Shown here piece by piece: positions 421 to 56,194 of a DNA stretch of 64,000 nt. This DNA comes from Mytilus edulis (lineage: Eukaryota). The stretch spans positions 66,588,001 to 66,652,000 of the forward strand of contig NC_092346.1 of assembly GCF_963676685.1 (NCBI RefSeq), given 5' to 3'. The notes beneath the pieces are model-generated. The model was not told the origin of the DNA and did not search any database. It saw only the letters and a program-made list of their open reading frames with translations. The position numbers and the translations under genes are program-made. Positions within the stretch are counted from its first letter, which is position 1, and every line of letters starts with the position of its first letter.

Positions 421-899
421 TGAAACAATATATGCTCACCTTCTACTTGCACAGGGGTAAGGCCGTATGTCGATGACTATTGAAACAATATATGCTCACC
501 TTCTACTTGCACAGGGGTAAGGCCGTATGTCGATGACTATTGAAACAACATATGCTCACCTTCTACTTGCACAGGGGTAAGGCCGTATGTCGAGGACTAT
601 TGAAACAATATATGCTCACCTTCTACTTGTACAGGGGTAAGGCCGTATGTCGAGGACTATTGAAACAATATATGCTCACCTTCTACTTGCACAGGGGTAA
701 GGCCGTATGTCGATGACTATTGAAACAACATATGCTCACCTTCTACTTGCACAGGGGTAAGGCCGTATGTCGAGGACTATTGAAACAATATATGCTCACC
801 TTCTACTTGTACAGGGGTAAGGCCGTATGTCGAGGACTATTGAAACAATATATGCTCACCTTCTACTTGCACAGGGGTAAGGCCGTATGTCGAGGACTA
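421..899. repeat. 60-bp tandem repeat x8 (exon-containing minisatellite)
   Basis: Eight near-identical 60-nt units starting at 421, 481, ... 841. Only three variable positions (unit offsets 9, 30, 54); 481-660 is identical to 661-840. Confidence 0.98.
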
Positions 900-2586
900 C
901 AAAAGACAAAATACAAGATAGGAATATGAAAAACATGTATTCTTAAGCAGAAACTACACGTATGCGAAAGACATAAGCAGAAATTTCAACAATTGTTACA
1001 CATTATTATTTAAATGATTAGAAAACAATGGTTAAAATAACGGCAAATTGTAATAAAAATATTTTAAAGTCAAATTATCAAACAGGAACGTTCGAACACA
1101 GCAAACTGTGATATGAATGAAACAATCTTTCAGATACACAAGCAAAAGCATTTATTTTTTAAACTCAAGGAGGTTTCACAGTATGACATTTAAAGAACAT
1201 GGATATGGTTGAAACTTTCAAATACAAATTGAATAAAAATCAAAAATGTACTGTTCATGTCAATATTAATATATGTGCATCCATTACAAGAAGCTGAAAA
1301 CGCACGTGTTTAAATCCGATCCAATACTGAGTATAGAGCATGTAGGTTTCATGAGGATACAAATTTCAAACACATACAGTGTATAAACAGAACAGCCTCA
1401 TTAATACGTGTGCACCAATTACCAATACATAACACAAAATATGCAATAATTTCAACAAAGCAAACATATTATACAAAACATATATACAATGATTGCAGCA
1501 AAGGTTCTCAAAGATGTGAATGGTAACTTCAAGGATAAAAAATATAGAAAGTAAAGTCAGAAGAAGTCACCAGACTGACAGAATATAACATGATGGTAGG
1601 GATTCCAGACCCGGTGTAAGCATTGATATAGAAAACATGAATTATTTTACACCAGTTGGTTGGACCAAACCTGTCGCTTTTGTGAAAATCATCCTGGATA
1701 CTTTGTCTTTTTCTGTTTGAACGTTCATAGAAAATACAATTCAGACAAAATAAATAGATGAAAAATGTAATCTGTGAATAAAATTAACATTGAATAAATT
1801 AGTGTTCGTCCGAAACGCTTTTTTTGACAGAAATCGAGCAGACCAGACTTATAGAACACTCGTCAATATGCTATTGCACGTTATTTAGTAGATCACTTGA
1901 TTATCAGCAGTCATCGGAGGTCATCTCGATGGCTCTTTACATGGCTTTAAATATTTAATATTGTATCAATAACTTAGGTTTAAAAATATGTTTTATTATA
2001 TATACTAGTATTCATAATCCATCTGTACCAGTACGTTACTAAATAAATAGGATGTGTGTTAGAATCTATACATGACAGACTAATGCTTTCATTCGAACAG
2101 TATACACTATACATAGTTATTAATTTAATAATGCTCATGACATTTAATAAGACTACGTATTTATTAGTAATGCAAATCAATGTCACATAGCAAACAAAGT
2201 GAAGTGCCAAAACATTAAATGCATTGAATATTTTATTGAATAGAATTAAATTAGAATGGTAATCCTCAACAACAATTCGCAAGTATATATAAACCTAATT
2301 TTACTTTGTATAACATTGTAAATAAACTTCGTACATTTAACAATAATGGAAAATATGTGATCAATTGAGTTTTATTGAATTTCAAAAAGGCTTTTTATAA
2401 CAATACAATAAAGATCAATCTACCGCTTGAAACTATACACACTTAATAAATATATTTATGGAGTTAAGTGTATGTATAAATTGAAAACACAACTATTTAT
2501 CAAAGTCAAAAACATACATTGTAGGGAGAATTATTCTTAAATGTGAAAAACATTTTTTCAGTAAATTAGAAAAGTGCGCTTACCAT
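440..2586 (-). CDS. 5' part of a probable calmodulin-like gene (gene F). ATG-only exon 2584-2586; exon 2 (37 nt, SSTYGLTPVQVE+G) present in 8 tandem copies; remaining exons lie left of the window
   Basis: Minus strand reads gaaaATG|gtaagc at 2584-2586. Strong acceptor ttttgtcttttgtag precedes exon 896-860 TCC TCG ACA TAC GGC CTT ACC CCT GTG CAA GTA GAA G|gtgagc. The phase-0/phase-1 structure matches exon 2 of the five neighbouring genes, and M-SSTYGLTPVQVE aligns with [11 protein letters not shown]. No EF-hand exon is visible in the window, so family assignment is inferred. Confidence 0.72.
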
Positions 2587-52288: not shown

Positions 52289-55200
52289 TCATTTTGAGGC
52301 CATCATATGAACGAATTCTGAAAAGAAAAGAACGATAAAGGTAACTTGAGTAGACTTCCTAAAACATATGATTCATTAACAAACAGTGTAACATTACGTG
52401 TGTGACATTGACTATACTATATAATTATTATATGATTTTTGTGCAAAACACAATTGTTTAAATGTCGTTGATCGAAAATTTCATTTTGTTGTTTTTTTTT
52501 ATGCTGGAATTTGGGTCGGGACCACATCACATCATATCCATTATATTGATTATCAGATATATTGCAGCGAAACTTTTTACCTTTATTTATATTATTAACT
52601 TATCCTTCTTCTACAGAGCTTCTTAAGTGCCAAAAATGAAATTTTAAATATTTGTACGCGCGCGACTTTAAATTTTGTGCGCATAACTTTAAATCATGAG
52701 AACACAACTTTTAAACTTGTGCGCACAAACTTTTAATCTGGTCTTTGAACGATTGCAGATAACATACGATGTTTGTGCTACAGTGAACGATCATACATTG
52801 CATTTGTCTTATAAAGATCATGCTGTTGTTGACAAATAAAACGAAATTCATTGAACTCAAACTGGAAAATCAGTTCTCATTTAGATTGTAGTTACTTCAA
52901 AGTTGCTTTGAAATAAAGAAGAGAAAAGACACCAAGTCTACACATTCATACCACCATTCATGCAAAGAGATTTTCCACTACATGGTTTTTCAACAAAAAA
53001 ACTAATTGATGTAAACCGAATATCTACGATTAGTTGTTTTATAGCAGTATATTTACATACTTAAACAATGACGTATTTTTGTTTTTGTAATTCCAGAAAA
53101 GGCATATGTACCATATCTGGCAACGGACTATTTGTACAGGCAACGGACTATTTGTACAGGCAACGGACTATTTGTACAATGTTATCTGGCAACGGACTAT
53201 TTGTACAGTGTTATCATGCTTCGTGTGATACTTTTTTCTTTATTTTTCTATATCCTCTTATCTTAACTGATAATTTTCCCGAAACTGTTGAAAATCAAGT
53301 TAATTGCTGGACTATTTTACAAAAGGGGCGAAAGATACTAGAGGGACATTCATACTCATATGTTAAAATGAACACACAACGTCATGGCAAAATAATAAAG
53401 AAAAAGACCAATTATAGACAAACAGAAATACCCAAAACACGACTTGGAAGACTAAAGACTGAGCCACGAAAACTATCATGTTATTCTCTTCGTCACTTGA
53501 TACGCGTTTAGAATTAATGATAATTCAACAATACTAAAAAAAATTGGTAAAATATGTCGCGATTTAACTATATAGTAATTAATTATGTGTAGATCTTGAA
53601 TGTGATACATATTGACGTCTCTATATACCTTCATAATGAACCTGACCATCACCGTCTTTATCAGCAGCTCTGATCATTTCGTCGATTTCAATCTCACTTA
53701 ATTCTTCTCCCAAATTTGACATTGCTTTTCGGAGTTCATCTGCATCTATAATGTCATCTCCATTTTTGTCAAATGCTTTGAAAGCTTCCCGAAGTTCTTC
53801 ATGGGAATCTGTTTCCTTCACTGTCCTTGCCACAAGAGATAAGAAATCAGGAAAGTCTATAAGTTCTTCTCCTGTTTAAACAAAGAAAAGTGAAGATGAT
53901 CGATATGGAAAAAACACACATTTTATATACAATGAAAAACCAAATGCAAAATCATTACTGTAAGACGGAGAAACAATTTCCATCTGAATACCTGTAGGTT
54001 GTTTATGTTGATGAATATCATGGCGTTCTCTTCTTACTTGTTTCCCCGCGTGTTTATTTCATATAGTTAATACTTCGTTGCGAAAGAAAATATATCCCAT
54101 ATATTCATGTTTGAGTTGTTAAATCATTGTGTCTTTTTTTTAGTTCAAAGCAAGTCTTGGTGTTTTTGTTTTGTTTTTGATTTATCTATAATTAAGATTC
54201 AGTTGAGATATACTTTATGGGTTTTGACTACGTGTGTATACTGATGATAACATTGCTATATGAAGTCTCTTTGGAGGTAACCTCTTCTTACTTTAAAGTG
54301 ACAAAATAATTTTACTTTATCAGGGAGTTGAGTACTTTGTCAATGAGTCCACTTTCCGTAAATGTATTCGAAATAATTTTGTTCATGTTTGTTATGCTTA
54401 TACTTTAGTGTTTTCTATGATATGGCAATCCCAACATTTATCGAGATTAAAAGGGGGTGGATAGACCTAAACACAAATCGTAAGTTACACCGTCAACTAT
54501 ATTGTTATGCTTATATCACGTGAGGAAATTCGTCAGAAGTTGTCTTTATGTCTTTGACCATCTTCTTTTTTAATTTGTTTTGTGCCAAATTAATTTCAAG
54601 ATATACCAGTCACCCAGAAAGAGACACACAACACACACTAATGTTTGTCCATAGATCACACTAGCTCATACTAGACTTAACATGCAAAGAGTTAAATAAA
54701 CATAATTATCTTTGTTCAATAAATGTTCTAGCAAACTTCATATCAGTACATGTATATAATGGTTTTGTTTAGACTTAAATGCTTTAAGACATTAAAATGT
54801 CCGCTGACCAATCCATTTAAAAACTGATTTTTCCCCTTGAACGTTGTTTTGCTTTTGCACCATCAACTACTAGCAAGCTCACATAAAACATAAACATATA
54901 ACGACAGCAGTATACCATTGCTATCAGGATCAGCATAAGCATGTGTCATTTCTTTCAATTCCTGGTTTGTAGGATTCTGTCCTAAAGCCATCATAACTGT
55001 TCCGAGATCTTGAATACTGATAGATCCATCCCCGTCAGTGTCAAAGGCACGGAAAGCTTCATAATATTCTGTAAAATGTACAATTCTGACAATTAGTTTT
55101 TAAAAATTAAAGCATTTAGATATGCTTTTTTTTCTTTTTTCTCTCAGTTTAAATTACAATACTACATTTCAGATATTAAAACATATTAAAACATAAACAG

Positions 55201-56194
55201 ATATAAAAGGTTTTAATATCAAGTTTTTAGTCTACAATTTATACTATTTCAAGAACCCGTTACCGTATGATTGTTCTTCATCGAGGAGTTAAAAATGTAC
55301 TTTTCAATCATTTGCAAAACAAAGAAAAACCAATGCAAAGGATCATACCTGCTATTTGTTCTTCTGTAAGCTGATCAGCCTACAACATTAATTTTTAAAT
55401 GAAAAATGCATCTTCGATAGCCAGCGAAAATAGAAAAAATATTATGCTTTTACATAGAATTATTATACAGACTCAACTATATATAAAAAAAAACAAGGAG
55501 ATGTTTTATGATTGTAATTGCGACAACTGGCCATCACAGTCCACATGACGTGCATGTAAGCAGCAATATAGGACTCCGAAAAGCCCTCAACGACGAGTAA
55601 ACCCGTCATGGCTACCAACCCGTCATGGCTACCTTTTGGTTAATGAACTTCTACAATTTTCAATCACAATATCTGAACCTGTAAAGAAAGATCGCACATT
55701 TATTGAACTTTTGAAAATGCTTTATGGAATCATTTAATGAAAATATTCAAATGTGTTTCAGATATGAGGACTTAAACTTTTACGCTACCGAAATTGTGTC
55801 ATCAATCTGCAGTTTTCAATACATTGATCTTCACAGAATGATTCCTTATATTGTATTTGTACGCCTCCTATTATAGATTTTTCTGAAGATTTTACTCATT
55901 CTATATATCTATGTAATCAAATATAAAATAAAATATGTCGTTTGTCCATATTCTCACTCGCCTTACATATTTGAAACCGTTTTCAAAAACAGACATTCAT
56001 ATGTTTGCTGATGTCCCAAATAACAACACTAAAATAGTCTTTTGACATCCTTTTTTTAGCGTCTTTAAATGATCGAACTTAATTGCCGCAGTAGTCTCGT
56101 GATCGACAATGCCAGATATTGATGCAAAAAGACCCTTAAAACACCTACAAGGAAATATTATAACCAAATAAGTATATAAATTGTGACTTACCAT
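52289..56194 (-). CDS. Divergent calmodulin-like protein (gene E), 152 aa
   Basis: Exons 56192-56194, 55349-55379, 54916-55068 (153 nt), 53629-53871, 52289-52317. [158 protein letters not shown] at 52264-52269. Confidence 0.92.
53119..53207. repeat. 20-bp repeat x4
   Basis: ggcaacggactatttgtaca three times in tandem, plus one spaced copy. Confidence 0.9.

What the first reader, a model, noticed from the sequence alone, without database searches (positions are those of the whole stretch)
440..56194. Tandem cluster of five complete plus one probable calmodulin-family genes with graded divergence
Seen: co-oriented genes about every 10 kb share intron positions (3/31/144/243/29 nt). Known: the 243-nt exon corresponds to the fused 107+136-nt exons of vertebrate CALM genes, and animal calmodulin is usually almost invariant. 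Here A, C and D all differ from the standard invertebrate sequence (all I85L; A also Q49S, R74K, T79S; D R74K, I130V, E139Q), while B and E have degenerate EF loops. Inference: an old local expansion producing Ca2+ sensors with different specificities, possibly relevant to biomineralisation, cilia or gametes.
Basis: partly seen in the sequence, partly recalled or inferred. Interest (0 to 1): 0.7.

Follow-up and report, generated by a model that had tools for sequence, protein, structure and literature searches.

The report
Mussel 15-gene calmodulin array, shared exon
These six genes are part of a 15-gene row of calmodulin-type calcium-sensor genes in a mussel that also keeps one standard calmodulin gene elsewhere; four were seen spliced in RNA, and five near-standard copies share one unusually similar exon, likely because they copy sequence into each other.

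Summary
The window (Mytilus edulis, by a 100% match to a named protein) holds five complete minus-strand calmodulin-family genes and exon 2 of a sixth, which is intact just left of the window. They belong to a 15-gene tandem array of about 205 kb; 47 such genes were found on this chromosome. A canonical calmodulin gene lies 7.7 Mb away. A, C and D keep all Ca2+ ligands (dN/dS 0.016-0.024); B and E have degenerate N-lobes and are 93-99% conserved across four Mytilus species. New here: in five near-canonical copies, exon 3 differs at 22% of silent codons against 46% in exon 4 (p=0.0002), and their introns do not align. This points to exon-limited gene conversion; abalone calmodulins show the same skew. 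Altered target specificity and roles in shell, cilia or gametes are untested. Several non-identical calmodulin genes are already known in molluscs; the array size and exon-3 pattern were not found in 8 literature searches, nor in two look-ups of earlier scan findings.

The parts
419..899 (-). Gene F exon 2 (37 nt, first copy 896-860) amplified as 8 tandem 60-bp units; each unit is exon plus 23 nt of splice-site sequence with an in-frame stop. F exons 3-5 lie left of the window (C3:66586993, 66586447, 66585937)
   Evidence: unit found nowhere else in the genome; no reads in 4 of 4 runs
2584..2586 (-). Candidate ATG-only exon 1 of F (unverified; one of two candidates)
   Evidence: motif only
6887..8976 (-). 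Gene A coding exons 2-5 (8976-8946, 8168-8025, 7439-7197, 6915-6887); 149 aa, 95.3% identical to the canonical protein
   Evidence: spliced exon 4-5 contig in run X1
11913..11915 (-). Candidate ATG-only exon 1 of A (unverified)
   Evidence: only ATG-donor motif between A and B
17332..21058 (-). Gene B exons 2-5 (21058-21031, 20322-20179, 19284-19042, 17360-17332); 148-aa calmodulin-like protein, degenerate EF1 and EF2
   Evidence: two splice joints in run X24
21861..21896 (-). Alternative first coding exon of B in the 159-aa RefSeq isoform; an ATG-only exon 1 candidate for the 148-aa isoform lies at 23224-23222 (unverified)
30425..35746 (-). Gene C (ATG 35746-35744; 34708-34678, 32960-32817, 31143-30901, 30453-30425); 149 aa, 94.0% identical to canonical; RNA 5' ends near 35810-35830
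   Evidence: all four joints in X21 and X24
40357..47020 (-). Gene D (ATG 47020-47018; 45410-45380, 44295-44152, 41560-41318, 40385-40357); 149 aa, 95.3% identical to canonical
   Evidence: three of four joints shown, in X24 and X3
52289..56194 (-). Gene E (ATG 56194-56192; 55379-55349, 55068-54916, 53871-53629, 52317-52289); 152-aa calmodulin-like protein with a 3-residue insertion before EF2
8066..8168 (-). Homogenised tract of exon 3 in A (about residues 12-46); includes a 26-nt word found only in A, C, D, H and I
32858..32960 (-). Homogenised tract of exon 3 in C
44193..44295 (-). Homogenised tract of exon 3 in D

Best explanation
This is the middle of an old 15-gene tandem array of calmodulin and calmodulin-like genes that sits apart from the mussel's single canonical calmodulin gene; the near-canonical copies (A, C, D and two neighbours) keep all four calcium-binding loops and likely work as ordinary calmodulins switched on in different tissues, with their first EF-hand exon likely kept alike by gene conversion, while B and E have lost the ligand pattern in the N-lobe and are predicted to sense calcium mainly through the C-lobe. 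Shown: gene structure, splicing of A-D, sample-dependent expression of B and D, low dN/dS, excess silent identity in exon 3. Inferred: tandem duplication by unequal crossing-over, freed by the canonical gene; conversion confined to the most identical coding stretch because introns and linker have diverged; B and E acting as specialised, partly calcium-independent subunits on IQ-type targets (by analogy with calmodulin-like proteins, recalled).
For: Array and census: 15 genes in 66.556-66.76 Mb, 47 of 50 modelled loci on C3. Canonical gene at 74.308 Mb, exon 4 identical over 80 of 80 residues to solved invertebrate calmodulins such as 2bkh_B; no second such gene among 33 exon-4 matches. dN/dS over exons 3-4 is 0.014-0.033 for all 10 pairs of A, C, D, H, I. 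Splicing: C all four joints in X21 and X24; D in X24 and X3 but not X21; B in X24 but not X21 or X23; A one spliced contig in X1. B is 93-99% and E 97-99% identical across M. edulis, galloprovincialis, trossulus and californianus. Exon 3 against exon 4: 0.22 (44 codons) vs 0.46 (66 codons) silent difference, permutation p=0.0002; five outside genes 0.555 vs 0.544; 7 of 10 inside pairs and 0 of 20 inside-outside pairs have Fisher p<0.05; intron 3 aligns in 0 of 10 inside pairs, but at 88% in a recent control pair whose exon 3 is not the slower exon (8 of 42 vs 3 of 73). Abalone: 1 of 54 coding substitutions in exon 3 (PMC6171432).
Against: The five-gene group was chosen after seeing the data. 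No single pair passes Bonferroni in the tract test (best 0.09). The exon-3 tree joins the five at only 86/94 and the exon-4 data do not reject that clade (p-AU 0.51). No orthologous DNA from a distant mussel was available, so a slower silent rate in exon 3 is not excluded. dS is near saturation, so the dN/dS values are rough; for B and E most pairs are saturated and no ortholog dN/dS could be computed. No calcium-binding or target data.
Confidence: 0.62

Rival explanations
1. The exon-3 similarity comes from selection on the nucleotide sequence (splicing enhancers, shared RNA-binding site or codon choice) in these five genes, not from conversion.
For: The same exon is the conserved one in abalone (PMC6171432). 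A 114-nt stretch of exon 4 with near-identical protein is not homogenised, which plain conversion does not explain. Saturated outside pairs cannot show a rate difference.
Against: The canonical gene and four other near-canonical genes do not share the silent bases. No shared RNA fold: z = -0.86, -1.26, -2.90 for C, D, A and -0.59 for the canonical gene, with different structures. Third-position make-up is similar in both exons.
Confidence: 0.2
2. A, C and D are true specificity variants: linker and C-lobe changes (74-90, 130, 139-147) are selected to bind different targets.
For: Changes cluster in the linker and C-lobe: 6 of 7 (A), 8 of 9 (C), 7 of 7 (D) lie after residue 73. Each copy has its own set and has been kept to silent-site saturation.
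Against: Most changes are conservative and spare the ligands; L85, K90, D83, V130 and R143 occur in the calmodulin of PDB 7jts_t, and a C-like linker occurs in an unrelated compact-genome locus L105. Position 139 of C looks polymorphic. Orthologs of A, C and D could not be compared.
Confidence: 0.3
3. The extra near-canonical copies are kept mainly for dosage, to supply more calmodulin in calcium-handling tissues; their differences are nearly neutral.
For: dN/dS 0.014-0.033; homogenised exon 3; 11 of 50 loci are at least 90% identical to canonical over exons 3-4.
Against: Expression differs by gene and sample, and A and D are weak in the runs laid. Dosage does not explain B, E and F.
Confidence: 0.2
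4. The array is recent, decaying or an assembly duplication.
For: One broken exon-4 fragment at 66.661 Mb and an exon amplified as a minisatellite in F.
Against: Open frames in 15 genes, non-aligning introns, saturated exon 4, splicing in RNA, orthologs in four species.
Confidence: 0.03

Closest known systems
Four calmodulin genes of Pacific abalone (PMC6171432; parts 1-3 of 5 read)
   Same: Several non-identical 149-aa calmodulins, five exons with ATG-only exon 1 and no intron in exon 4, tissue-dependent expression, and very few substitutions in exon 3 (1 of 54).
   Different: Four genes, genomic arrangement stated as unknown, no gene-conversion reading in the parts read, divergent members not treated. 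Here a mapped 15-gene array mixes near-canonical and degenerate genes and lies apart from the canonical gene.
Bivalve calmodulin-like proteins (Pinctada CaLP, oyster CaLP isoforms; seen as passages and reference titles in PMC9063065, PMC4391921, PMC13144384)
   Same: Calmodulin relatives alongside a canonical calmodulin in bivalves; many calmodulin-annotated unigenes in scallop mantle.
   Different: Orthology of CaLP to any array gene was not tested. B and E have no named ortholog outside Mytilus (word-based, weak). No mantle or shell evidence here.
Plant CaM/CML families (recalled; mentioned in PMC6171432)
   Same: A few near-identical calmodulins plus dozens of calmodulin-like proteins with degenerate EF-hands and different expression.
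   Different: Animal lineage, all members keep calmodulin intron positions, and most sit in tandem arrays on one chromosome.
Vertebrate CALM1-3
   Same: Multiple genes; same intron positions except one extra vertebrate intron (figure legend of PMC6171432; the 107+136 split is recalled).
   Different: Vertebrate copies are dispersed and encode one identical protein.
Interlocus gene conversion in tandem arrays (search listing only)
   Same: Silent-site homogenisation among neighbours.
   Different: Here limited to about 100 nt of one exon among otherwise saturated paralogs; not found reported for calmodulin in those searches.

Membership tests
Calmodulin (canonical type): A, C, D | 149 residues and over 90% identity to canonical calmodulin (criterion used in PMC6171432) | tested here: met
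   149 aa; 95.3, 94.0 and 95.3% to the genome's canonical gene, whose exon 4 matches solved invertebrate calmodulin in 80 of 80 residues
Calmodulin (canonical type): A, C, D | Four EF loops with ligand positions 1, 3, 5, 12 and Gly6 intact | tested here: met
   Only loop changes are at non-ligand positions 130 and 139 (loop numbering from established knowledge)
Calmodulin (canonical type): A, C, D | Invariant animal sequence and ubiquitous expression | tested here: not met
   7-9 substitutions each; D joints absent in X21, A weak; the invariant gene is at 74.308 Mb
Calmodulin (canonical type): A, C, D | Binds four Ca2+ and activates calmodulin targets | not testable with these tools
   needs biochemistry
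Calmodulin (canonical type): B, E, F | Over 90% identity and four intact loops | tested here: not met
   49, 60 and 61% over exons 3-4. B: EF1 and EF2 degenerate, EF3 canonical, EF4 Glu3/Asp12. E: EF1 Asp12, EF2 disrupted, EF3 Gly6 to Asp, EF4 near canonical
Calmodulin-like proteins (CML/CaLP): B, E, F | Calmodulin-sized protein of EF-hand pairs only, closest solved relatives calmodulins | tested here: met
   Only EF-hand-clan Pfam hits for B and E; best PDB matches of B are calmodulins; F judged by alignment only
Calmodulin-like proteins (CML/CaLP): B, E, F | Calmodulin intron positions | tested here: met
   joints of B seen in RNA
Pinctada-type shell CaLP | Orthology and mantle or shell localisation | not tested
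   No CaLP sequence was in hand and the runs have no tissue label
Array under interlocus gene conversion | Local excess of silent identity among neighbouring paralogs | tested here: met
   0.22 vs 0.46, p=0.0002; outside genes 0.555 vs 0.544
Array under interlocus gene conversion | Significant tracts per pair and rejected congruence of exon trees | tested here: inconclusive
   No pair passes Bonferroni; p-AU 0.51
Array under interlocus gene conversion | Paralogs group by species in the converted tract | not testable with these tools
   Metagenome scan gave no mytilid ortholog of A, C, D, H or I among 83 loci

The most novel reading that the evidence does not exclude
Molluscs run a plant-like calmodulin repertoire (dozens of genes on one chromosome) in which gene conversion locks the first EF-hand of the near-canonical copies while selection diversifies linker and C-lobe, giving a panel of calmodulins with one N-lobe and interchangeable target-binding halves; the same lobe-specific concerted evolution arose in mussel and abalone.
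Probability: 0.3. Interest if true: 0.68.

Novelty: new variant of a known kind. Interest (0 to 1): 0.43.

Why it matters
Calmodulin is the textbook invariant, usually single-copy protein of invertebrates. A mussel with one canonical gene, ten further copies at 90% or more and dozens of divergent relatives gives a natural series for asking which residues tune target choice. It answers, for a bivalve, the question the abalone paper left open (tandem or dispersed). It also warns that primers and reads in exon 3 cannot tell the copies apart, which matters for studies that measure 'calmodulin' in mussels under acidification or stress.

Tried and rejected
Metagenome scan for L85-type calmodulins: 83 loci, none an ortholog of A, C, D, H or I; one (L136) matches exon 4 of the C9 gene at 89% DNA, without exon 3. 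No RNA holder on record was listed; the 'RNA?' shares were not used as evidence unless laid. Protein tree of 50 loci: the careful search did not finish, the quick tree is star-like (3 of 47 branches starred), so no order of duplications is claimed. ESM Atlas for B: only generic calmodulin-family clusters. Shared RNA structure in the tract: not supported. Depth over A exon 3 rejected as expression evidence: reads carry the base of C, D, H and I at 8146 with further differences. Read-through of the F repeat rejected: each unit has an in-frame stop. No structure or complex prediction was run. Five candidate loci were dropped from the census as incomplete, and matches on C2, C12, C13, C914 and C3:48.1 Mb were not fetched.
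Full report
Observation. Motif scans and translated self-searches found exon 3 and exon 4 of five minus-strand genes, A to E. Exons 2 and 5 were placed by splice-site search and all frames are open. The 3/31/144/243/29 pattern is exact for A, C and D; E has a 153-nt exon 3 and B a 28-nt exon 2. The sixth gene, F, shows only exon 2 (37 nt) in the window, in 8 tandem 60-bp copies at 419-899; its other exons lie just outside and are open.

Source and surroundings. The window is G000:C3:66588001-66652000 of a 1.37-Gb genome. 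Exon 4 of B matches P0001, named as Mytilus edulis calmodulin-like, at 100%. A search with exon 3 gave 106 matches from 150 of 171 candidates scored. After fetching most of those regions, 50 loci had an open exon 3 and exon 4 at calmodulin intron positions: 47 on C3, 15 in this array (66.556-66.76 Mb, 14 on the minus strand) and 9 in a second array at 101.99-102.15 Mb. Five candidates were dropped as incomplete and some regions were not fetched, so these are lower bounds; a few automatic exon ends in distant members may be off. Eleven of the 50, the canonical gene included, are at least 90% identical to canonical over exons 3-4.

Canonical gene. One gene, at C3:74.308 Mb, has an exon 4 identical in 80 of 80 residues to solved invertebrate calmodulins; that its last nine residues also match is recalled. 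No second such gene appears among 33 exon-4 matches. Against it A has 7, C 9 and D 7 substitutions, nearly all after residue 73 and none at a Ca2+ ligand. L85, K90, D83, V130 and R143 also occur in the calmodulin of PDB 7jts_t, so these residues lie within what a working calmodulin tolerates. B has degenerate EF1 and EF2, a canonical EF3 and an EF4 with Glu3 and Asp12. E has Asp12 in EF1, an insertion and a broken EF2, Gly6 to Asp in EF3 and a near-canonical EF4 (loop rules from established knowledge). Pfam finds only EF-hand-clan families in both.

Expression and selection. Two lays covered 350-20349 and 29600-49599, four runs each, none with a tissue label, and the raw-read runs may be from a sister species. 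C shows all four joints in X21 (26-95 reads, on the expected strand) and X24. D shows three joints in X24 (6-10 reads) and X3, none in X21; its last joint was not among the rows shown. B shows two joints in X24 (38 and 47 reads) and none in X21 or X23. A has one spliced contig in X1. F exon 2 has no depth in 4 of 4 runs. B is 93-99% and E 97-99% identical across those species, with unnamed relatives at 78-82%. No named ortholog outside Mytilus was found, by a weak word-based search. dN/dS among A, C, D, H and I is 0.014-0.033, with dS 0.8-1.7; pairs with B, where finite, give 0.20-0.26.

Exon-3 homogenisation. Among A, C, D and the neighbours H and I, silent codons differ at 0.22 in exon 3 (44 codons) and 0.46 in exon 4 (66 codons), p=0.0002 in 20,000 shuffles; five near-canonical genes outside the array give 0.555 and 0.544. 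Seven of 10 inside pairs and 0 of 20 inside-outside pairs reach Fisher p<0.05, and the low stretch covers about residues 12-46. A 26-nt word from it occurs exactly five times in the genome, in these five genes. Intron 3 aligns in none of the 10 pairs, so the genes are old and exon 3 is the outlier; in a recent control pair the intron aligns at 88% and exon 3 is not the slower exon. Array members with a changed exon-3 protein (J, G, F) do not share it. Against: the group was picked after the fact, no pair passes Bonferroni in a tract test, exon-4 data do not reject the five-gene clade, and no distant ortholog DNA was found. Gene conversion is the best reading; selection on the nucleotide sequence remains open, though no shared RNA fold was seen.

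How it likely works. Tandem duplication produced copies freed by the canonical gene. Near-canonical copies kept four loops and took on different expression; conversion continues only where coding identity is highest. Others lost N-lobe ligands and were then conserved, which suggests fixed roles as C-lobe sensors or constant subunits of particular targets. The last step is inference by analogy.

Known work. PMC6171432 (parts 1-3 of 5 read) describes four non-identical abalone calmodulin genes with this exon structure, tissue-dependent expression and 1 of 54 substitutions in exon 3; it leaves tandem versus dispersed open and cites intron evidence for several genes in Mytilus. PMC4391921, PMC9063065 and PMC13144384 (passages only) show many calmodulin-annotated transcripts and shell-linked CaLPs in bivalves. 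Eight searches listed no paper on a molluscan calmodulin array or on conversion among calmodulin genes; the library lacks most subscription journals and no supplements were read. Two look-ups of earlier scan findings found nothing on this array.

Verdict. Real, functional for at least A-D, and a new variant of a known kind. The array size and the exon-limited homogenisation lift it above a routine gene family; the lack of functional or tissue evidence and the abalone precedent hold the score at 0.43.

Noticed in passing
window 419-899: A coding exon with both splice sites amplified eightfold as a 60-bp minisatellite in gene F; only the first copy keeps the long pyrimidine tract, and including two copies would shift the frame.
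   Followed up: partly
window 30902: In run X24, 83 reads at the C exon 4-5 joint carry a base that would change Glu139 to Asp, against 44 with the reference; D has Gln at the same position. Likely an allele.
   Followed up: no
G000:C3:101.99-102.15 Mb (L071-L088): Second calmodulin array of 9 genes, without exon-3 homogenisation among its near-canonical members; some annotations in other Mytilus species fuse these genes into one long multi-EF protein (P0008, P0009), probably in error.
   Followed up: partly
G000:C3:102026055-102026393: The 3' part of exon 3 of one array gene is repeated twice downstream, one copy with a stop: a second case of exon-sized tandem repeats in a calmodulin gene.
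   Followed up: no
G000:C3:66661252-66661374 and 66665-66671 kb (L036, L037): A broken calmodulin exon-4 fragment next to fragmented frames that look like a Polinton-type element (DNA polymerase and ATPase-like pieces, resemblance recalled).
   Followed up: no
G000:C3:62.1, 70.2-70.6 and 71.15-71.25 Mb: Further clusters of divergent calmodulin-like genes, including a recent pair (70.301 and 70.346 Mb) with 88% intron identity.
   Followed up: partly
G000:C9:54678457-54693708: A near-canonical calmodulin (95%) with an 11.9-kb intron on another chromosome; its exon 4 is identical in protein to metagenome locus L136.
   Followed up: no
window 37866-38044: A short stretch between C and D with very deep, mostly one-directional RNA coverage in X21; reads run on into unlike sequence, so likely a repeat piece of a transcript from elsewhere.
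   Followed up: no
window 4171-4509, 9685-10078, 24038-24500, 58775-59239: Dispersed repeats in several copies, including a 460-bp self-complementary element present twice.
   Followed up: no
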